A stretch of DNA of 31,521 bases from Escherichia phage 204576: sequence record CP025907.1; one strand, written 5' to 3'. Shown piece by piece: positions 16,219 through 26,621 of the stretch. Positions within the stretch are counted from its first letter, which is position 1. Each line of letters starts with the position of its first letter. Below the pieces are notes generated by a model, which did not search any database, was not told where the DNA came from, and saw only the letters and a program-made list of their open reading frames with translations. Position numbers and translations under genes: made by a program.

Positions 16219-16228
16219 TGGGGTGAAT

Positions 16229-19200
16229 ATGGCAGTAAAGATTTCAGGTGTACTGAAAGACGGCACAGGAAAACCGGTACAGAACTGCACAATCCAGCTG
16301 AAAGCAAAACGTAACAGCACCACGGTGGTGGTGAACACGCTGGCCTCAGAAAATCCGGATGAAGCCGGGCGTTACAGCATGGACGTTGAGTACGGGCAGT
16401 ACAGCGTTATTCTGTTGGTGGAGGGATTCCCGCCGTCACATGCCGGGACCATCACCGTGTATGAAGATTCCAGACCAGGTACGCTGAATGATTTTCTCGG
16501 TGCCATGACGGAGGATGATGCCCGTCCTGAGGCACTGCGCCGTTTTGAACTGATGGTGGAAGAGGTGGCGCGTAACGCGTCCGCGGTGGCACAGAACACG
16601 GCAGCCGCGAAGAAGTCAGCCAGCGATGCCGGCACATCAGCCCGTGAGGCGGCAACCCATGCGACTGATGCTGCAGGCTCAGCACGCGCAGCCAGCACGT
16701 CAGCCGGACAGGCCGCGTCGTCGGCTCAGTCAGCATCTTCCAGCGCAGGAACGGCATCAACAAAGGCCAGTGAAGCATCGAAAAGTGCTGCTGCTGCAGA
16801 GTCCTCAAAAAGCGCGGCAGCTACCAGTGCCGCTGCGGCGAAAACGTCAGAAACGAATGCGGCAGCGTCACAACAATCAGCAGCCACTTCTGCATCCGCC
16901 GCGACCACGAAGGCGTCAGAAGCAGCCACCTCAGCCCGGGATGCGGCGGCCTCAAAAGAGGCAGCGAAATCATCAGAAACGAACGCATCATCAAGCGCCA
17001 GTAGTGCCGCTTCCTCGGCAACGGCGGCAGCAAATTCCGCGAAGGCGGCAAAAACGTCCGAGACGAACGCCAGGTCTTCTGAAACGGCAGCGGGACAGAG
17101 CGCCTCAGCTGCGGCAGGCTCAAAAACAGCGGCTGCGTCGTCTGCCAGTGCCGCGTCAACAAGTGCCGGGCAGGCCTCAGCCAGTGCCACCGCCGCCGGA
17201 AAATCGGCAGAAAGTGCCGCATCGTCTGCTTCAACAGCCACAACGAAGGCTGGCGAAGCCACTGAACAGGCCAGCGCAGCAGCGAGGTCTGCTTCCGCAG
17301 CGAAGACATCCGAGACGAACGCGAAAGCGTCGGAAACCAGCGCAGAATCCTCAAAAACGGCTGCCGCATCGTCCGCCAGTTCGGCGGCGTCATCGGCATC
17401 ATCGGCGTCTGCTTCAAAAGATGAGGCGACCAGACAAGCGTCCGCAGCGAAGGGCAGCGCCACGACAGCATCCACGAAGGCGACAGAGGCAGCTGGCAGT
17501 GCGACGGCGGCAGCACAGAGCAAAAGTACGGCGGAATCCGCGGCAACGCGCGCCGAGACAGCGGCAAAACGGGCAGAGGATATTGCATCCGCCGTGGCGC
17601 TTGAGGATGCAAGTACGACGAAAAAGGGGATAGTACAGCTCAGCAGTGCGACCAACAGTACGTCTGAAACGCTGGCGGCAACGCCAAAGGCAGTAAAATC
17701 AGCCTATGACAATGCAGAGAAACGTCTGCAGAAAGACCAGAACGGCGCTGATATACCCGATAAGGGACGCTTCCTGAACAACATTAACGCGGTCAGTAAA
17801 ACAGACTTTGCTGATAAGCGTGGTATGCGTTATGTGCGGGTTAACGCTCCTGCAGGTGCAATATCTGGAAAATATTACCCTGTTGTTGTTATGCGTTCTG
17901 CTGGCTCAGTAAGCGAACTGGCATCAAGGGTCATTATCACCACGGCAACGCGAGCCGCAGGCGATCCGATGAATAACTGCGAGTTTAACGGATTTGTTAT
18001 GCCAGCCGGATGGACTGACAGAGGGCGTTATGCCTATGGAATGTTCTGGCAATATCAAAACAATGAACGAGCCATTCACTCAATAATGATGAGTAATAAG
18101 GGCGATGATTTGCGCTCTGTGTTCTATGTTGATGGCGCTGCTTTCCCTGTTTTTGCGTTTATCGAAGATGGCCTGTCAATATCCGCACCTGGTGCTGATC
18201 TCGTTGTTAACGATACGACCTACAAGTTTGGGGCAACAAATCCGGCGACTGAATGTATCGCGGCGGACGTTATCCTTGATTTTAAGAGTGGGCGTGGTTT
18301 TTATGAGTCTCATTCGTTAATCGTTAACGATAACTTGTCGTGCAAAAAACTTTTTGCCACAGACGAAATTGTAGCGCGTGGTGGTAATCAGATTCGAATG
18401 ATAGGTGGGGAGTATGGGGCATTATGGCGTAATGATGGCGCTAAAACTTACCTGCTGCTTACCAATCAAGGTGATGTTTATGGTGGCTGGAATACATTAA
18501 GACCGTTTGCTATTGATAACGCAACCGGCGAACTGGTTATTGGAACCAAACTGTCTGCAAGTCTGAACGGTAACGCATTGACAGCAACAAAGCTGCAAAC
18601 GCCAAGACGGGTTTCTGGGATTGAGTTTGATGGTTCCAGAGATATTACTTTAACCGCCGCGCATGTGGCTGCTTTTGCCAGAAGGGCAACGGATACATAT
18701 GCCGATGCGGATGGTGGCGTTCCCTGGAATGCCGAATCAGGCGCTTATAATGTCACCCGCTCTGGCTACAGCTATATTCTGGTTAACTTCTATACCGGAG
18801 TCGGAAGTTGCCGGACCTTGCAGATGAAGGCGCATTACAGAAATGGTGGTCTGTTCTACCGTTCTTCAAGAGACGGTTATGGTTTTGAGGAAGACTGGGC
18901 AGAAGTTTATACCTCGAAAAATCTTCCACCAGAAAGCTACCCAGTCGGCGCACCAATCCCGTGGCCATCAGATACCGTTCCGTCTGGTTATGCCCTGATG
19001 CAGGGGCAGACTTTTAACAAATCTGCCTACCCGAAACTTGCAGCCGCTTATCCGTCAGGCGTGATCCCTGATATGCGTGGCTGGACGATTAAGGGCAAAC
19101 CTGCCAGTGGTCGGGCCGTATTGTCTCAGGAACAGGACGGCATTAAATCGCATACCCACAGCGCCAGCGCATCCAGTACGGATTTGGGGACGAAAACCAC

Positions 19201-19642
19201 ATCGTCGTTTGATTACGGCACTAAATCCACGAATAACACCGGGGCGCATACGCACAGTCTGAGTGGCTCTACGGGGTCTGCCGGTGTTCATACTCATGGT
19301 AATGGTATTCGTTGGCCAGGAGGCGGCGGTTCTGCGTTAGCATTTTATGATGGCGGTGGGTTCACTTATGTCCAGAATTCACAGTATCAAGTAAGCCCGG
19401 GGACTTCTTCCTATAGATCGTATTATCAACGTATTCAGACACAGTCAGCAGGTGCTCATACCCACTCGCTGTCTGGTACTGCAGCAAGTTCTGGCGCACA
19501 TGCACATACTGTAGGTATTGGTGCGCATACGCACTCCGTTGCGATTGGTTCACATGGACACACCATCACCGTTAACGCTGCGGGTAACGCGGAAAACACC
19601 GTCAAAAACATCGCATTTAACTATATTGTGAGGCTTGCATAA
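16229..19642 (+). CDS. stf: Side tail fibre protein Stf (long variant, about 1137 aa)
   Basis: N-terminus [26 protein letters not shown] matches lambda Stf; Ala/Ser/Thr-rich repeat region; C-terminus with GAHTHSLSG/HxH repeats and [26 protein letters not shown] identical to the lambda Stf end. Confidence 0.9.
16600..17600 (+). repeat. Low-complexity Ala/Ser/Thr-rich coding repeats within stf
   Basis: Repeated AAKTSETNA / SASAAS motifs; generates long spurious ORFs in the other five frames. Confidence 0.8.
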
Positions 19643-20226
19643 TGGCATTCAGAATGAGTGAACAAGCACGGACCATAAAAATTTATAATCTGCTGGCCGG
19701 AACTAATGAATTTATTGGTGAAGGTGACGCATATATTCCGCCTCATACAGGTCTGCCAGCAAACAGTACCGATATTGCACCACCAGATATTCCTGCTGGC
19801 TTTGTGGCTGTTTTCAACAGTGATGAGGCATCGTGGCATCTCGTTGAAGACCATCGGGGTAAAACGGTTTATGACGTAGCGTCAGGGGACGAGTTATTTA
19901 TTTCTGAACTCGGTCCGTTACCGGAAAATGTTACCTGGTTATCGCCGGAAGGGGAGTTTCAGAAGTGGAACGGCACAGCCTGGGTGAAGGATACGGAAGC
20001 AGAAAAAATGTTCCGGATCCGGGAGGCGGAAGAAACAAAAAACAACCTGATGCAGGTAGCCAGTGAGCATATTGCGCCGCTTCAGGATGCTGCAGATCTG
20101 GAAATTGCAACGGAGGAAGAAACCTCATTGCTGGAAGCCTGGAAAAAGTATCGGGTGTTGCTGAACCGTGTTGATACATCAACTGCACCTGATATTGAGT
20201 GGCCTACGAACCCTGTCAGGGAGTAA
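19642..20226 (+). CDS. tfa: Tail fibre assembly protein Tfa
   Basis: Intact 194-aa ORF, same length as lambda Tfa; start overlaps the stf stop (TAATGG). Confidence 0.85.
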
Positions 20227-20280
20227 TCATTGGGATTATGCCGCAGCACGTCTTAAGCAAGAACGTGCTGCGGTTGGATG

Positions 20281-20937
20281 CTATTTTTTCCCTGAAGCGG
20301 AAAACATTACTACAGTACCTTGAACCTTGGTTTTAACATTCTCGAAATGCTCTGAGAGTATATGTGTTAAGCCTTCTTCGGAATCTTTTGTGTTTGAAAA
20401 GATGCCTTTCTGATTGTAAATGCGCATCAGTTTTTGACCGAAGCTATTGTGCACAACTCCATCGCCAAGAATTGTGGCTCCGTATAGAGTTCCATCGTCA
20501 GTTAAGGCCTGCGCCGCATTGCGTATTACACAGCTTTTTGTAGATATATTTCCAGGCAGGCAGTGAAGAAGGTAAAACATGGAAATGGAATCAAATTGAC
20601 CATGTAACGCCGCGGGATAAGGTTCAAAAACATCATGGCTAATTTTATGTTTAATTTTTGATTCCCCAGCCCTTGTAGATGCCGCGTTCAGGCTAGCTTC
20701 GTTCAAATCCATTAAAGATATCAGACTACTCTCAGGTACGTGAGTAAGGTAAAACCCAGTTCCAACACCAATATCCAGATGGTTGTTACCTACATGTTCC
20801 AGAAAGTGTGGAAGAAGGTGTTCCTTTGTAGGACATCCCCATGCAAGCCGATTTGATACTCCCAAAACCCACCAGTCATAAAGCTTTAGGGTAAGTGGTG
20901 TGTAAATTTTAGCCCCATCATCTGTGTTTTTTTTCAT
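20281..20937 (-). CDS. Class I SAM-dependent methyltransferase (non-DNA type), low-GC cargo gene
   Basis: Motif I DIGVGTGFY (GxGxG), acidic post-I LMDLNEASL, motif II/III region FDSISMFYLLHCLP; no DPPY/NPPY DNA-methyltransferase motif. Preferred start MKKNTDDG with a GGTGA ribosome-binding site (ORF track start 20949). Confidence 0.7.
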   Translation of the reverse strand: MKKNTDDGAKIYTPLTLKLYDWWVLGVSNRLAWGCPTKEHLLPHFLEHVGNNHLDIGVGTGFYLTHVPESSLISLMDLNEASLNAASTRAGESKIKHKISHDVFEPYPAALHGQFDSISMFYLLHCLPGNISTKSCVIRNAAQALTDDGTLYGATILGDGVVHNSFGQKLMRIYNQKGIFSNTKDSEEGLTHILSEHFENVKTKVQGTVVMFSASGKK

Positions 20938-21005
20938 TGATTTCACCATGTTATAGTTTTATTTGTGAATTAAATCAATTATGGCGATGAATTACAAGGG
21001 GTTAA

Positions 21006-21275
21006 ATGCTGCCGCAGCATAGCGATATTGAAATAGCCTGGTATGCTTCGATACAGCAGGAGCCGAATGGCTGGAAGACCGTCACCACACAGTTCTACAT
21101 CCAGGAATTCAGTGAGTATATTGCGCCACTGCAGGATGCTGTAGATCTGGAAATCGCAACGGAGGAAGAAAGATCGTTGCTGGAGGCATGGAATAAATAT
21201 CGGGTATTGTTGAATCGTGTTGATACATCAACTGCACCTGATATTGAGTGGCCTGCAAATCCTGTCAGGGAGTAA
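21006..21275 (+). pseudogene. Remnant second tfa (C-terminal part of a different tfa allele)
   Basis: C-terminal 50 aa ([52 protein letters not shown]) near-identical to the end of the tfa at 19642..20226; the N-terminal part is short and not Tfa-like. Confidence 0.65.
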
Positions 21276-21278
21276 TCA

Positions 21279-21560
21279 TTGGGATTATGCCGCAGACACG
21301 TCGTATGCAGGAACGTGCTGCGGTTAGTTTGTGAGCTTTCGATAGTGGTTGTTATTTTTGCCCTTATTTGTTCCGGAGGCCATGGTTCAATGGTCCGTCT
21401 GCCCCCTGTGGTGATGTCAGCAAAATCAGCCACTGCGCGAACCACAATAGCCCGGGAAGATGCTGAAGATCACCAGGTAAAGCTATCAGCGCAGAAACTG
21501 GAAGAACTGCTCGCATCAATGGTTAAGGATGAGGTTGATCGCAATGATGGGATTTATTGA
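21279..21560 (+). CDS. Hypothetical small protein (possibly starting at the internal Met, about 56 aa)
   Basis: ORF only; GGAGG upstream of the internal ATG; no recognisable motifs. Confidence 0.2.
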   Translation: MGLCRRHVVCRNVLRLVCELSIVVVIFALICSGGHGSMVRLPPVVMSAKSATARTTIAREDAEDHQVKLSAQKLEELLASMVKDEVDRNDGIY

Positions 21561-21699
21561 CGTCAGCGAGAGCAGAAGGAAGAACTGAATAACCTGAATG
21601 ATTTACGCTCAATCAGAGCGATGATGATTGGCAGTAATTAGCGGTCAATTTCGGTTTTTTTGGCTGTGCGCTCCCCGCCCAGCATTGCGCGTCAATTAG

Positions 21700-22050
21700 C
21701 CCCAAAAAAACGAAAAAGTTACAATCAAGTAAAAAATTCCTTCTGCAAAACTAAAAAAGATTTCAATAAAATCAGACAGTTAAAAACATAAAAAAAAGGT
21801 ACAAAAAAACATCTCAAAGTCTTGTTTTTTGCTTCAAATACAATTGGTTATTGTGTTTTTTGAAACCTACCAGTGTGGTACATGGATATCGATACCACGG
21901 CTAAGTACAAATCTGGTGTTACTACCGTAAAAGACTCGGTACGACTGGATCCGTGGGTGTTTATGTTCTCCGCAGGATATCGTTTTTAATTTTCTCTGCA
22001 AAACCTCTGCAAAACCCCTCTGCAAAACTGGTCATCAAATGACCAGTTTT
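21700..22050. other. Putative attP region with arm-type integrase-binding repeats
   Basis: AT-rich segment adjacent to the int 3' end; three tandem CTCTGCAAAAC repeats at 21994..22028 and one TCTGCAAAAC at 21742..21751; placement as in lambda attP. Confidence 0.55.
22024..22050. terminator. Palindromic hairpin overlapping the int stop codon (terminator or sib-like element)
   Basis: AAAACTGGTCAT-caa-ATGACCAGTTTT perfect inverted repeat flanked by A/T runs on both sides. Confidence 0.4.
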
Positions 22051-23165
22051 TTCCATTCCTTACCGCGTGCGTCGTTGTAAATATCGGTCATTTTTTGATT
22101 CGAATGGCCTAGCAAAATTTTGGTATCAACCCCCTGCTCTCTTAACAATCGCTCTGATAAAGATCTCTGCTCATGGAAAGAGGGAGGGGTGCCATTAGCA
22201 CGCCAGTTGTAATCCACAGAATCCCGGGCTTTTTTAAATGCAACGGTTAATGTTGCTGGCTTAACCATCCCGCCGCGCTTAGCTGTCCCTTTCGCGTGAT
22301 GGTGGTGCAATAGCCACGGACTAAGAACGCAATCGCGGCAGGATGACACCACATCATCCAGGGTGAGATTTAATTTATCGCAACGCAGAGCCAGAGGGAT
22401 GGCAATCCGGGTTCCTGTTTTTTGCTGTTCGACATGAAGATAACCATCCCGGATATCCGAAAATTGCATTTTGCAAATATCTGAAAGGCGCTGGCCTGTC
22501 ATCAGTGCCAGCAGCATACCGCGCTGTAAAAAGTAACCATCCTTTTCCGCTGCGTTATAAATCATCATCCACTCATCAAAAGTCAGTCGCTGTCTTGATA
22601 TCCGCACCTGCGGTTTTTTTGCCGATTCTGCAGGGTTAAAGCCTGGCGGGACATCGCCCGTTTGCTGAGCTTCCCGGAAAACATCGATCAGTACCTTCCT
22701 GAAAATTTGTCCCATTCTGTTATGTCCTCTGGCCTTGTACTCTTCCAGTACTGATACCACATCTTTTACGGTTATGGCATCTAACGGTCTGGTGCCAAAA
22801 CGTTCATCAAATACCCTGAGAGGGGCCGCTTTCTGTTTCAGCGTGTTGAGTTTGATCTCGCCGTTTTCATATCTTTCCTGTTGAATTTTTCTGTAATTAT
22901 TCAGAAAAATGGTAACGGTTGATGAACCGCCGGTATCACTAATAATTTTCTCCTGCAGACTGAGCATTTGTTCCATTTGCTGCCGGGCAAGACGGCTGTT
23001 CGCTTCTGCTGCAATAGTTTCTGCCAGTTTCTGGTCAATACTGCCGAGACCGTGATTTTTGCCTGTTATGGGATGCCTGTAACGCCAGTAAACTTTGTTA
23101 TTTCTTTTGTCAAAATACGGAGATAATCCCGGAACATTGGTTTTATATTTTCGCGGGCGCGCCAT
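22035..23165 (-). CDS. int: Tyrosine integrase (lambda Int family)
   Basis: Intact 376-aa ORF; C-terminal catalytic region (TFHE.RSLS.RL, LLGHSNQKMTDIYNDARGKEWKKL) parallels lambda Int (LLGHKSDTMASQYRDDRGREWDKI). Confidence 0.9.
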   Translation of the reverse strand: MARPRKYKTNVPGLSPYFDKRNNKVYWRYRHPITGKNHGLGSIDQKLAETIAAEANSRLARQQMEQMLSLQEKIISDTGGSSTVTIFLNNYRKIQQERYENGEIKLNTLKQKAAPLRVFDERFGTRPLDAITVKDVVSVLEEYKARGHNRMGQIFRKVLIDVFREAQQTGDVPPGFNPAESAKKPQVRISRQRLTFDEWMMIYNAAEKDGYFLQRGMLLALMTGQRLSDICKMQFSDIRDGYLHVEQQKTGTRIAIPLALRCDKLNLTLDDVVSSCRDCVLSPWLLHHHHAKGTAKRGGMVKPATLTVAFKKARDSVDYNWRANGTPPSFHEQRSLSERLLREQGVDTKILLGHSNQKMTDIYNDARGKEWKKLVI

Positions 23166-23391
23166 CTTCCAGTATCCTCTTCAAAGCAGGGTGATCTGTG
23201 GCGATCACCTCCGGCTTGTTTACCATTCCGACAAAGCGAGCTTGCGGATCCACTCGCCAGCGTCTTCCAACTTTTTTGGGGAGAGGAAATATCATTCCGG
23301 CTTTAGCGTATTTACTTAACGTACTCGGAGTTGGGACCGGTTCACTGAATTCCTCTTTTGCCCACTCAGTGAGCAGAATAAGTCTTGCCAT
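23143..23391 (-). CDS. xis: Excisionase (Xis-like)
   Basis: 82-aa ORF overlapping the int start by 23 nt; LTEWAK......P.P.TLSKYAKAGMIFP.PKKVGRRW resembles lambda Xis. Confidence 0.7.
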   Translation of the reverse strand: MARLILLTEWAKEEFSEPVPTPSTLSKYAKAGMIFPLPKKVGRRWRVDPQARFVGMVNKPEVIATDHPALKRILEDGAPAKI

Positions 23392-23455: not shown

Positions 23456-25926
23456 TTAAAAATCAGCCTGATTCGGGATCAGTTTTTGCCAGATAACTGA
23501 AACGTATTTTGCCTGGTAACGGGCGTCATCAAGTGCATTATGGCGCTCACCTTCGAATGGAATAGCCGTTCTGGCATCGAAGTCTATGGCTTTCCCCAGC
23601 TCAACGATTGTGCGTACATCGCGATCGTTGTAGTAACGCCACGGGCAGGGGATCCCCTGCCGTTCGTATGAACGGCGCAAAATCGTGTTGTCGAAGTTGG
23701 CTCCATTTCCCCAGACATGAACAAAAAATTCACCGGAGTTTTCGTCGATAAATTCCCGCAATTGTAACAGTGCATCATCTAACGGGATTTCATCGGTCAT
23801 AATGGCAGACTGCGCTTCACGTGATTGCTTCAGCCACCTTTTAATGACGTCACGATCAATGACTCCGCCAGCAGTTTCCAGATCGATAGTCTTACTAAAT
23901 TCCGGTCCCATATCTCCGGTTTGCGGATCGAAAAATATTGCACCTATTGAGATAATCGGGGCATCAGGATTTTTTCCCATGGTTTCAAGGTCGATCATTA
24001 GATGGTCACACGTCCTGCTGGTGGATGTGATAACGTGATGACCGTTCATCGTAATTAAGGGATCTGCCGTCTCGCCAGTTTCACTATCGCTGGCGTGATC
24101 CTGAGCGCTACCAGCATTCTCCTTGTGTGGATGTTCAGCGCCTTCCATTTCCTTCGGATCATTTTCCTGAACTTCAACCTGATTCTCTTCATCGAATGTT
24201 TCCTGGTATGTTGCGTCACCCATCACCGCGCCACAATCAGGGCAGTTGCCGCCACCGCTTTGACCGCAGGCGGTGCAGACTTTTTCCGGTTCCTGTTGCG
24301 CTACTGGCTCAGGTTGTTTCGTTTCTGGCTCGTTTTGTAACGCATTTGGGCTGTTTTGTTCCGCTTTCTGGCCGTTCTGTTCCGTTTCTTGTTGGTTCTG
24401 ATTCACTGAATCGCGGGTTTCAATCCCCTTCACCCATTTCGGATCATTCGGGTCGCTAATCCCTGCAACAAATTCACCACGTGATACAGCAAGCAACTTA
24501 TTGGCGTCAGGCTGGCTGATATTGGCTGCCTGCATAATTTTGTTTACTTCGTCAGCGGTAACTTTTACCGGCTCTGGTTGTGCGATCGTGTCAGATGCAC
24601 CAGTATTTTGTTGTGAACCTGAGTATGTACTGTTTTTGCGGGCGAAATATTCTTCTTTCGTGATTTCAGTAGCCCCGGCAGCCAGCGCCTTATCCAGACC
24701 AGAAAGTTTGTTTGCGCGACCGTATTTTTCGCCATCCTTGTCGGTGAAGAGGAAGTAGAACGGCCCTTCACGCTCTACAGATGGTTCGACTTCCACTTTG
24801 CATTCGGTTTTTTCGTTGTCCGGAATTGCCGTTTCCACTGCATCAGTTTCTGGTACTGGCGACGAGAGAGTATCAGTTGCGCTCTGATTTCTTCCTTCAT
24901 CTTCAAACACGCCCTTTGTAGTCAGGTATTCAGTAATGTATTTGTTCAGTGCCACAGGGTCTTTGTGAATGTCGATCGGACGTTCACGGACAAGGCCAAA
25001 AATAGTCTGGCGGTCGTAGCGAAGGGCATCAGGCTGTTTGCGCATTGATGCCGAGATACGCTTCCAGTCTTCGCGGTCGTTGTCGATAACTTCATTTTTT
25101 GCCCAGCGATGGATGCTGCCGTCAATGTTTCCGGCATCCACATCACCAGGCCAGAGAGCGTAGGCCAGTTCGTCATCCAGTGTTTTCCATGTCTGCTTGT
25201 ATTCGCGATGAATGGCAGCAATGACCGGGCTGATTTTTCCTGTTGAATTTTCACTGTGCTGTTGATTGGTTCTGGCGCAGGCGAGATCAACAACAGACGT
25301 GTATTTTCCGGTTTCCTTGCGTTCACCTTCGCGACGTTTTTCCAGATGCGCATCTCTGCCTGAATTTCGGGCCATTTGGCACCAGGCTTACATTTATGCT
25401 TAACCCACCCGATGGCATGCAGCTTAAGCTCCGGATACATGGCGTTAACTTCTGGCATTTTCATCAACGCTTCAACGATATGTCCGTCGAATGTTGCCAT
25501 GTCTTCCTGCAACAATTCCTGTGCGCTAATAACCATATCAACGGTGATGTTTTCACATGTGTCGAACTTAACCATGACAGCGTTCTGTACTTCAGGGGAC
25601 AGCTTGTCAAAATTGACGTTCATCGGATCGGATTCTGGTTCGACTGGAATAAAGGAAGCGGATTCCTCATCCCAGCGGTTTTCCTGCATATATTCAGCAT
25701 CCCAGGAATCGAGGGCAGGGCGGGGTATACCGGGTTTATCCTCGCAGACAAGAAATTTATAAGCGCAGTCCTGAGCAGCCGGATAATGTTCCAGGAATTG
25801 CCAGTGAAATTTTGCGCGGGCGCGACGTTCATCACCGGCTTCAATGGCAGTGGCTACAGCGACGGCACCTTCTTCCTTTATTGCCTGTTCGTCCGGAATG
25901 GCGGCGCAAATAAAGACTTTACTCAT
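23456..25926 (-). CDS. Large exonuclease-like protein: acidic N-terminal domain, Cys4 zinc ribbon, C-terminal DEDDh (DnaQ-like) 3'-5' exonuclease domain; probably one frameshift near 25250-25375
   Basis: ORFs 24946..25926 and 23456..25375 overlap in different frames and both look protein-like near the junction. C-terminus carries DEDDh motifs (IDLETMG, VWGNGANFDNTIL, HNALDDARYQA) and a central CTACG...CPDCG zinc ribbon. Confidence 0.65.
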
Positions 25927-26563: not shown

Positions 26564-26621
26564 AAAAAGGGCGGCAGAGCAGTCACGGAGTAAAACTGAT
26601 ACCGCCAAACGTCACCAGAAA
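26564..26621 (-). ncRNA. dicF: DicF-like small RNA with intrinsic terminator
   Basis: Minus-strand sequence UUUCUGGUGACGUUUGGCGGUAUCAGUUUUACUCCGUGACUGCUCUGCCGCCC followed by UUUUU; matches recalled 53-nt DicF (ftsZ-targeting sRNA) and sits directly upstream of dicB as in the Qin operon. Confidence 0.75.

What the first reader, a model, noticed from the sequence alone, without database searches (positions are those of the whole stretch)
20281..20937. Cargo methyltransferase of unknown substrate at the tail-fibre/attP moron position
The encoded protein has class I SAM-binding motifs (DIGVGTGFY, an acidic residue ending beta-2, FDSISMFYLLHCLP) but lacks DPPY/NPPY-type DNA-methyltransferase motifs, so it is more likely a small-molecule, protein, RNA or polysaccharide methyltransferase than an anti-restriction DNA methylase. 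Its position (between tail fibre genes and attP/int, opposite strand, own hairpin downstream) is where serotype-converting and other lysogenic-conversion genes sit in related temperate phages. I could not assign a substrate; this is the strongest candidate for an uncharacterised function in the window.
Basis: partly seen in the sequence, partly recalled or inferred. Interest (0 to 1): 0.6.

Follow-up and report, generated by a model that had tools for sequence, protein, structure and literature searches.

The report
Prophage YbcY-family orphan methyltransferase
This is an intact copy of ybcY, a very common E. coli prophage cargo gene for a small soluble SAM-dependent methyltransferase; its target is still unknown, so the finding is real but already annotated.

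Summary
Window 20281-20937 (-) encodes a 218-aa class I SAM-dependent methyltransferase. It is 100% identical to RefSeq WP_000240999.1 and is the intact form of the frameshifted E. coli K-12 DLP12 pseudogene ybcY. It occurs in 3832 of 5426 complete E. coli genomes and belongs to PHROG 2132 ("unknown function").

The gene sits in a roughly 1.05-kb cassette absent from phage lambda. The cassette is bounded by two direct copies of the tfa 3' end plus hairpin. It lies 0.93 kb from an ompW-type att region and the integrase. So "cargo/moron between tail fibre and attP" is supported. The "own hairpin" is really the duplicated tfa terminator.

The AlphaFold model (pLDDT 91) resembles only small-molecule, lipid and natural-product methyltransferases. 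There is no DNA-methyltransferase motif, domain or fold match.

The family is large (1754 representatives, bacteria and fungi), always solitary and often on mobile elements. No member I saw carries a functional name, and I found no paper on function.

My best reading is a cytoplasmic small-molecule methyltransferase made in the lysogen from its own promoter. The substrate is unresolved, and I rate this already known with modest interest.

The parts
20281..20937 (-). Methyltransferase CDS (218 aa, intact ybcY homologue, identical to WP_000240999.1). An in-frame upstream ATG at 20949 would give 222 aa but is probably not used.
20950..20978 (-). Candidate sigma-70 promoter TTGATT (20978-20973), 17 nt, TATAAC (20955-20950). 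These are the same hexamers reported for K-12 ybcY as an RpoD 'constitutive promoter', with an H-NS mark in that spacer.
   Evidence: (PMC3946193)
20978..21005 (-). Alternative promoter-like site TTAACC, 16 nt, CATAAT. It would give a leader of about 34 nt containing the GGTGA Shine-Dalgarno-like element at 20947-20943.
   Evidence: Consensus match only; the number of such sites in the region is no higher than in shuffles.
20240..20274 (.). Strong hairpin (dG about -25 to -28 kcal/mol) starting 7 nt beyond the methyltransferase stop codon. It is part of the tfa 3' flank, and the T-run follows it on the + strand only.
20050..20275 (+). Direct repeat, copy 1: 3' end of tfa plus the hairpin. Left boundary of the methyltransferase cassette.
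   Evidence: (families D1 and D4, spacing 1049-1050)
21099..21325 (+). Direct repeat, copy 2 (89-90% identical to copy 1): 3' end of the truncated tfa plus a weaker hairpin. Right boundary of the cassette.
19642..20226 (+). Full-length tail fibre assembly gene tfa (194 aa, Caudo_TAP).
21006..21275 (+). 5'-truncated tfa remnant (89 aa; Caudo_TAP profile positions 75-130 only), equivalent to K-12 tfaX and divergent from the methyltransferase gene.
21864..21989 (+). Phage-borne 3' end of ompW (last 41 codons). This is the att region. Records of integrated PPompW prophages begin to match the window at about 21871 and annotate a 121-bp att duplication.
22035..23165 (-). Lambda-type tyrosine integrase (arm-binding plus catalytic domains).

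Best explanation
The gene is an intact member of the YbcY family (PHROG 2132). It encodes a soluble, solitary, 24-kDa class I SAM-dependent methyltransferase carried as prophage cargo.

Shown:
- The fold is a seven-stranded Rossmann-like core with SAM-binding motifs. It has a family-specific N-terminal two-helix lid and a conserved insertion between beta-5 and beta-6.
- The gene is a monocistronic unit on the strand opposite to the tail genes. It lies inside a roughly 1.05-kb cassette that lambda lacks, bounded by about 226-bp direct repeats of the tfa 3' end.
- The upstream spacer carries the same hexamers that bind RpoD holoenzyme in vitro at K-12 ybcY, in a spacer marked for H-NS.

Inferred:
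- The protein is made in the lysogen, independently of late phage transcription and probably damped by H-NS.
- It transfers a methyl group from SAM to an O, N or S atom of a small or lipid-like cytoplasmic molecule. The family-invariant residues Y20 and H125 are candidate catalytic residues, on my recollection (not checked here) of the Tyr/His pair of phosphoethanolamine N-methyltransferases.
- The lid and cap residues are invariant from enterobacteria to fungi, and no partner gene is conserved. The substrate is therefore more likely a widespread metabolite or common xenobiotic than a species-specific natural product. From general knowledge, this resembles how the trans-aconitate methyltransferase Tam/Tmt1 works.
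- The flanking repeats let the cassette be gained or lost by homologous recombination between lambdoid phages, which would explain its spread.
For: Identity and family:
- Pfam Methyltransf_12/23/25/11 are above their cut-offs, and PHROG 2132 matches full length at E 4e-157.
- The K-12-like DLP12 locus shows the same tfa-ybcY-tfaX synteny at 96.9% identity over 1465 bp.
- The gene is found in 3832 of 5426 complete E. coli genomes at 95% identity or more.

Structure:
- The AlphaFold model has pLDDT 91.4 and pTM 0.88 with canonical class I topology.
- Foldseek ranks PmtA, JHAMT, PfPMT, SgvM, CysG and NodS highest.
- The protein is soluble, with a maximum 19-residue hydropathy of 0.95.

Conservation:
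- Invariant across 55 sequences at about 40% mean identity: Y20, W33, H53, G57, G61, D77, S117, H125, G153, N182, D185.

Solitary and mobile:
- No neighbour is conserved across the genomic contexts examined in ten genera and species.
- Copies sit in prophages, integrase islands, effector loci and Nocardia/Rhodococcus plasmids.
- In 73 of 80 IMG/VR loci the gene lies within 2.4 kb of the viral contig end.

Moron anatomy:
- Lambda matches 19600-20275 and again 21110-21329, with nothing in between.
- GC is 0.38-0.43 inside the cassette against about 0.50 in tfa.
- Promoter hexamers are identical to those in the K-12 SELEX report.
Against: - No substrate is identified. All similarities to characterised enzymes are at superfamily level: 11-21% identity, TM 0.55-0.68, PDB profile E no better than 6e-7 and covering only the Rossmann core.
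- Family pI is often basic (median 8.9 in the enterobacterial set), which does not argue against RNA binding.
- Expression in the lysogen is inferred from an in vitro binding study of the K-12 pseudogene locus, not measured. The consensus promoter scan finds no more sites than in shuffled sequence.
- K-12 tolerates a frameshifted copy, and an ethanol-adapted K-12 line lost the region. The gene is dispensable in the laboratory.
Confidence: 0.55

Rival explanations
1. It methylates a macromolecule: a host or phage protein, or a tRNA/rRNA nucleotide. It would change translation, signalling or virion proteins rather than a metabolite.
Against: Those hits are no stronger than the many small-molecule hits and concern few members (2-4 of 55). 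There is no RNA-binding or extra recognition domain; the whole protein is the core plus a short lid. Distribution is patchy and linked to mobile elements, unlike housekeeping modification enzymes.
Confidence: 0.2
2. It is a cell-envelope converting enzyme. It could be a PmtA-like phospholipid N-methyltransferase making methylated phosphatidylethanolamine, or a methyltransferase acting on LPS or another polysaccharide precursor. Either would change the lysogen's surface and its phage or host interactions.
Against: The NCBIfam PmtA score is 15.7 bits against a cut-off of 390, and identity to 8ys9 is 15-17%. From general knowledge, known serotype-converting modules (GtrABC, Oac) are membrane proteins, whereas this protein is soluble and has no partner. 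The family is common in fungi and in many bacteria as a solitary gene in unrelated contexts, which fits poorly with an LPS-specific role.
Confidence: 0.13
3. It is an anti-restriction or epigenetic DNA methyltransferase.
For: Phages often carry orphan DNA methyltransferases, and the protein has a SAM-binding Rossmann fold.
Confidence: 0.02
4. It is a functionless hitch-hiker, carried along by recombination at the tfa repeats and slowly decaying.
For: K-12 carries a frameshifted copy. Truncated variants are frequent in the protein database, for example a 161-aa form with 445 members. A K-12 deletion mutant showed no different effect in the one assay found, growth under Hha overexpression.
Against: The intact 222-aa form has 6589 member sequences. 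Catalytic and lid residues are invariant across genera and kingdoms. E. coli copies are 95-100% identical, and 3799 genomes hold at least 80% of the gene.
Confidence: 0.08

Closest known systems
E. coli K-12 ybcY (DLP12 prophage pseudogene, 'putative SAM-dependent methyltransferase'); RefSeq WP_000240999.1; PHROG 2132
   Same: It is the same gene. The protein is identical to WP_000240999.1. The K-12-like DLP12 locus is 96.9% identical over 1465 bp, with the same tfa / ybcY / truncated-tfa arrangement. The promoter hexamers are those reported for K-12 ybcY.
   Different: The K-12 copy is frameshifted, whereas this one is intact. In DLP12 and in phages such as 2G7b and PhiR26_1 the cassette is followed by appY or an alpha/beta hydrolase and then ompT. 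Here it is followed by a further tfa-like remnant, an ompW-type att region and int.
Small solitary class I small-molecule and lipid methyltransferases with solved structures: PmtA (8ys9), JHAMT (7ec0), BelI/CysG (9fce, 9g0k), NodS (3ofj), PfPMT (3uj7), RebM (3bus)
   Different: Identity is only 11-21%, and sequence-profile similarity is limited to the Rossmann core. A profile of the N-terminal lid finds nothing in the PDB even at E 10. The substrate-determining parts are therefore unrelated, and no function can be transferred.
Classical lambdoid morons and exchangeable cargo between tail fibres and att: lom and bor of lambda, the T3SS effector genes of EHEC PPompW prophages, and the gtr/oac serotype-conversion genes
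   Same: It is an independent transcription unit of lower GC, inserted between conserved phage modules next to att, and it varies between otherwise related phages.
   Different: The product is a soluble enzyme rather than a surface protein, an effector or a membrane-bound O-antigen modifier. The cassette is bounded by duplicated tfa 3' ends and shares the tfa terminator hairpin instead of having its own.

Membership tests
Class I (Rossmann-fold) SAM-dependent methyltransferase superfamily | Motif I GxGxG after beta-1, and an acidic residue at the end of beta-2 | tested here: met
   D55-I-G57-V-G59-T-G61 and D77. G57, G61 and D77 are invariant in 55 sequences and G59 is at least 90% conserved.
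Class I (Rossmann-fold) SAM-dependent methyltransferase superfamily | Seven-stranded beta-sheet fold and a match to curated methyltransferase domain models | tested here: met
Class I (Rossmann-fold) SAM-dependent methyltransferase superfamily | Binds SAM and transfers a methyl group | not testable with these tools
   This needs purified protein.
YbcY family / PHROG 2132 | Full-length match to the family profile | tested here: met
   E 4.2e-157, with residues 5-222 matching profile positions 1-218 of 218.
YbcY family / PHROG 2132 | Orthology and synteny with K-12 ybcY (between a tfa gene and the tfaX remnant) | tested here: met
DNA methyltransferases (N6-adenine, N4-cytosine or C5-cytosine) | Catalytic motif IV (D/N/S)PP(Y/F/W), or PCQ plus ENV, together with a target-recognition domain | tested here: not met
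   I see no such motif in the 218-aa sequence printed. There is no DNA-methylase Pfam or NCBIfam hit. None appears among the top fold matches.
Phospholipid N-methyltransferase PmtA | Score above the curated NCBIfam cut-off | tested here: not met
   NF045882 scores 15.7 bits against a cut-off of 390. The structural match is only at fold level (TM 0.63-0.67, 15-17% identity).
BioC, UbiG, UbiE, RquA, CpaM and NodS (curated small-molecule methyltransferase families) | Score above the curated cut-off | tested here: not met
   CpaM scores 18 against 180 and RquA 16.9 against 175. In the family scan the window protein matches no family at E 0.001 or better, and other members give only weak hits.
Moron (independent lysogen-expressed cargo unit in a temperate phage) | Inserted between conserved phage genes, absent from close relatives, and of different base composition | tested here: met
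   Lambda lacks the stretch from about 20276 to 21109. GC is 0.38-0.43 against about 0.50. The cargo near this end differs in PPompW prophages that share the att/int segment.
Moron (independent lysogen-expressed cargo unit in a temperate phage) | Own promoter and own terminator, with expression from the repressed prophage | tested here: inconclusive
   The promoter hexamers equal those of the K-12 ybcY RpoD-binding site. The terminator hairpin is shared with tfa and has no T-run on the gene's strand. Expression was not measured.
Serotype-converting O-antigen modification modules (GtrABC, Oac) | Integral-membrane modification enzymes next to att/int | tested here: not met
   The position criterion is met, but the protein has no hydrophobic segment (maximum KD19 0.95). 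The only ORFs between tfa and int are tfa remnants and the ompW fragment.
Known anti-phage defence systems (PADLOC-DB) | Match to a defence-system protein model | tested here: not met
   The only hit is mad2 at E 0.0096 and 12.8 bits.

The most novel reading that the evidence does not exclude
The YbcY family catalyses a methylation not yet described, on one conserved substrate shared by bacteria and fungi. A carboxyl methyl-ester or a detoxifying O/N/S-methylation would be examples. Under this reading the prophage copy, present in about 70% of E. coli genomes, gives lysogens a measurable fitness or surface phenotype. The invariant lid and cap residues (Y20, W33, H53, H125, N182, D185), the lack of any partner gene, and repeated capture by prophages, islands and plasmids are all compatible with it.
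Probability: 0.25. Interest if true: 0.5.

Novelty: already known. Interest (0 to 1): 0.3.

Why it matters
The gene is among the commonest prophage cargo genes in E. coli: 3832 of 5426 complete genomes, with up to 4 places per genome. It belongs to a family of at least 1754 50%-identity clusters spanning bacteria and fungi. No member I inspected carries a functional name, and I found no paper on function. Finding the substrate would annotate thousands of genomes at once. It would also show what a soluble methyltransferase contributes to a lysogen. As it stands, the window adds no new biology beyond an intact, well-placed copy of a known orphan gene.

Tried and rejected
1. Looking for a characterised relative.
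- NCBIfam gave nothing near any cut-off.
- PDB sequence searches with the single protein and two family profiles gave a best E of 6e-7, covering the core only.
- A profile of the N-terminal lid alone found nothing at E 10 or better.
- The AlphaFold-database libraries were not available.

2. Looking for named homologues.
- Three searches, seeded with the window protein, an Aspergillus member and a Nocardia member, returned only generic names.
- One cluster look-up did the same.

3. Rosetta-stone fusions.
- Longer family members showed no informative extra Pfam domain except an RCC1 fusion in one eukaryotic protein.
- My guess that one N-terminal extension was U32-peptidase-like got no Pfam support.

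4. A conserved esterase partner (BioC/BioH-like logic).
- Alpha/beta-hydrolase or esterase genes lie near homologues in E. coli phages, Enterobacter, Erwinia and Yersinia.
- They belong to different families, and the phage and Erwinia proteins, the one pair compared directly, show no similarity. None is in this window. I dropped this as evidence.

5. Defence-system models: no hit.

6. Literature: 12 papers mention ybcY and none addresses function. The five I opened give genome context, one null phenotype, a promoter list, a deletion and one microarray row.

7. dN/dS: the E. coli copies I held differ by at most 2 codons, so this was uninformative.

Full report
**1. What is in the sequence**

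An ORF on the minus strand runs 20281..20949 (222 aa).
- The 218-position PHROG 2132 profile aligns with residues 5-222.
- Homologues from other genera start at the equivalent Met.
- A GGTGA element lies 5 nt upstream of that ATG.
- The -10 hexamer of the promoter reported for K-12 ybcY ends directly at the upstream ATG.

The quoted motifs are present. The protein is predicted soluble: maximum 19-residue hydropathy 0.95, pI 6.9.

**2. Identity**

The protein matches the generic Pfam methyltransferase domains above their cut-offs (Methyltransf_12, 37.5 bits against 30). It matches PHROG 2132, "unknown function", at E 4e-157. No NCBIfam family comes near its cut-off.

The DNA is found at 95% identity or more in 3832 of 5426 complete E. 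coli genomes, with up to four places per genome. RefSeq annotates it as "class I SAM-dependent methyltransferase", WP_000240999.1. A K-12-like chromosome carries the frameshifted copy in prophage DLP12, between a tfa remnant and a second truncated tfa, next to appY and ompT. From general knowledge, these are the genes known as ybcY and tfaX. Sequenced lambdoid phages (PhiR26_1, 2G7b, ev243 and others) carry the same tfa / methyltransferase / truncated-tfa block. One annotation notes it as "putative uncharacterized protein YbcY". The gene is therefore known and annotated, but only generically.

**3. Anatomy of the locus**

The order is:
- stf, 16223-19642 (+)
- tfa, 19642-20226 (+)
- the methyltransferase (-)
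- an 89-aa tfa remnant, 21006-21275 (+), which matches only the last 56 positions of the Caudo_TAP model
- a further tfa-like pseudogene (annotated DUF4376), about 21372-21641
- the last 41 codons of an ompW gene, 21864-21989 (+)
- int, 22035-23165 (-)
- xis, 23143-23391 (-)

Records of integrated "PPompW" prophages begin to match the window at about 21871 and annotate a 121-bp att duplication. The att region is therefore about 0.93 kb from the methyltransferase start codon. Those EHEC prophages share a 99.8% identical att/int segment. Near the same end, upstream of the att duplication, they carry the T3SS effector genes espO, nleG and espM.

Two direct repeats, 20050-20275 and 21099-21325 (89-90% identical, spacing 1049-1050), bracket the gene. 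Each is the 3' end of a tfa gene plus the hairpin that follows it. Phage lambda matches 19600-20275, and again 21110-21329 to the same lambda segment, with nothing in between. Relative to lambda, then, the methyltransferase sits in a roughly 1.05-kb insertion that homologous recombination between the repeats could add or remove.

The hairpin at 20240-20274 (dG -25 to -28 kcal/mol) has a T-run only on the + strand. It is the tfa terminator, not a structure specific to the methyltransferase. GC is 0.38-0.43 across the cassette against about 0.50 in tfa.

Upstream of the gene, the minus strand reads TTGATT, 17 nt, TATAAC (20978-20950). These are the hexamers listed for ybcY in a genomic-SELEX catalogue of RpoD holoenzyme "constitutive promoters". 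The ybcY-tfaX spacer is also marked for H-NS there (PMC3946193). This supports transcription independent of the phage late operon, but it is indirect evidence.

**4. Structure and family**

An AlphaFold model built on 37 homologues is confident (pLDDT 91.4, pTM 0.88). It shows a canonical seven-stranded class I fold, a two-helix N-terminal lid (residues 14-48) and a conserved insertion between beta-5 and beta-6.

An exhaustive profile search finds 1754 representative clusters, 414 of them below E 1e-30. Members come from Enterobacterales, Pseudomonas, Lysobacter and Dyella, Janthinobacterium, Acidobacteria, Bacteroidota, Nocardia and Rhodococcus (some on plasmids). Ascomycete fungi are also represented. 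All carry generic names.

Across 55 diverse members these residues are invariant: Y20, W33, H53, G57, G61, D77, S117, H125, G153, N182 and D185. The conservation extends well beyond the SAM site into the lid and cap. I take this as a sign of one conserved substrate.

**5. Genomic contexts of homologues**

| Organism | Context |
|---|---|
| Enterobacter hormaechei | Solitary chromosomal gene between an ABC transporter and an alpha/beta hydrolase, MerR and DJ-1 group |
| Erwinia | Divergent from a carboxylesterase |
| Testudinibacter | At the end of an integrase island, next to an OmpW-family gene |
| E. ludwigii | In an island next to a pertactin autotransporter |
| Yersinia | Near a GDSL-lipase autotransporter |
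| Pseudomonas | After a DUF892, Mn-catalase, DUF6388 group |
| Dyella | Between MATE and RND efflux genes |
| Janthinobacterium | After a chemoreceptor gene |
| E. albertii | Among NleG, OspG and EspF-like effector genes and cdtA |
| Salmonella | In an integrase island at mutS, next to a ricin-B lectin |

No partner is conserved. The nearby hydrolases belong to different families, and the one pair compared directly shows no similarity. In 73 of 80 IMG/VR loci the gene lies within 2.4 kb of the end of the viral contig.

**6. Interpretation**

Shown:
- The gene is an intact YbcY-family class I methyltransferase.
- It is not a DNA methyltransferase by motif, domain or fold.
- It sits in a repeat-bounded cassette at the tail-fibre/att cargo position.

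Inferred:
- It is transcribed on its own in the lysogen.
- It methylates a small or lipid-like cytoplasmic molecule that is widespread rather than lineage-specific, with Y20 and H125 as candidate catalytic residues.

I put about 0.55 on the small-molecule reading, 0.2 on an RNA or protein substrate, 0.13 on a lipid or envelope substrate, 0.08 on a functionless passenger and 0.02 on DNA.

**7. Novelty and score**

The gene is already known and annotated, and its function is unknown. I found no paper that addresses function. The finding does not go beyond what databases already state: "class I SAM-dependent methyltransferase, function unknown". It remains a reasonable target for substrate discovery because of its prevalence. 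Interest 0.3.

Noticed in passing
window 19985-20183 (+): Rfam RF02111 'IS009' matches at 223.8 bits (gathering 117), entirely inside the 3' part of the tfa coding sequence, overlapping the segment that is duplicated at 21099-21325. The family may describe a tfa remnant rather than an independent sRNA. The second copy did not reach the gathering score.
   Followed up: no
window 26569-26620 (-): A DicF antisense sRNA (RF00039, 76.7 bits) lies in the early region. In the 100%-matching chromosome the same region carries dicB and ydfC, so the early module is Qin/Rac-like.
   Followed up: no
window 21864-21989 (+), and 21200-22400 as a whole: A phage-borne ompW 3' end lies 45 bp from the int stop codon and marks the att region. 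The junction of tfa remnant, ompW fragment and int is contiguous in only 18 of 5426 E. coli genomes, for example strain 103605 at 100% identity. The window is therefore in vegetative (attP) order, or comes from a tandem lysogen at ompW.
   Followed up: partly
window ~21372-21641 (+): A third tail-fibre-assembly-like remnant lies between the truncated tfa and the att region. RefSeq annotates it as a DUF4376 pseudogene with an internal stop. The tfa-to-att interval looks like a graveyard of tfa 3' ends left by repeated recombination.
   Followed up: partly
window 20199-20336 (+): A 45-aa ORF overlaps the 3' end of tfa, the hairpin and the 3' end of the methyltransferase gene. RefSeq annotates it as 'hypothetical protein' or even 'nucleocapsid protein'. 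It is probably a spurious call.
   Followed up: no
window 20240-20277 and 21289-21347; L033 4731-4789 (lambda 24161-24219): The hairpin-containing sequence after tfa also matches a short segment in the lambda b region at 87-90% identity. It may be a recurrent boundary or recombination sequence flanking cargo in lambdoid phages.
   Followed up: no
window 16223-19642 (+): The side tail fibre protein (1139 aa) has a very long Ala/Ser/Thr-rich low-complexity stretch, roughly residues 100-500. It lies between the conserved N-terminal domain and the Gp34-trimer, collar and fibre-repeat C-terminal domains.
   Followed up: no
window 23456-25375 (-): A 639-aa protein next to xis has a C-terminal Rv2179c-like 3'-5' exoribonuclease domain (E 6e-63) and a long acidic, low-complexity N-terminal half. 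In the matching chromosome a longer ORF here is annotated 'exonuclease'.
   Followed up: no
L028 7001-9072 (E. albertii); L115 (PPompW_132418): A 64%-identical homologue of the methyltransferase sits among T3SS effector genes (NleG, OspG-like kinases, an EspF-repeat protein) and cdtA in E. albertii. EHEC PPompW prophages carry effector genes where this window carries the methyltransferase.
   Followed up: partly
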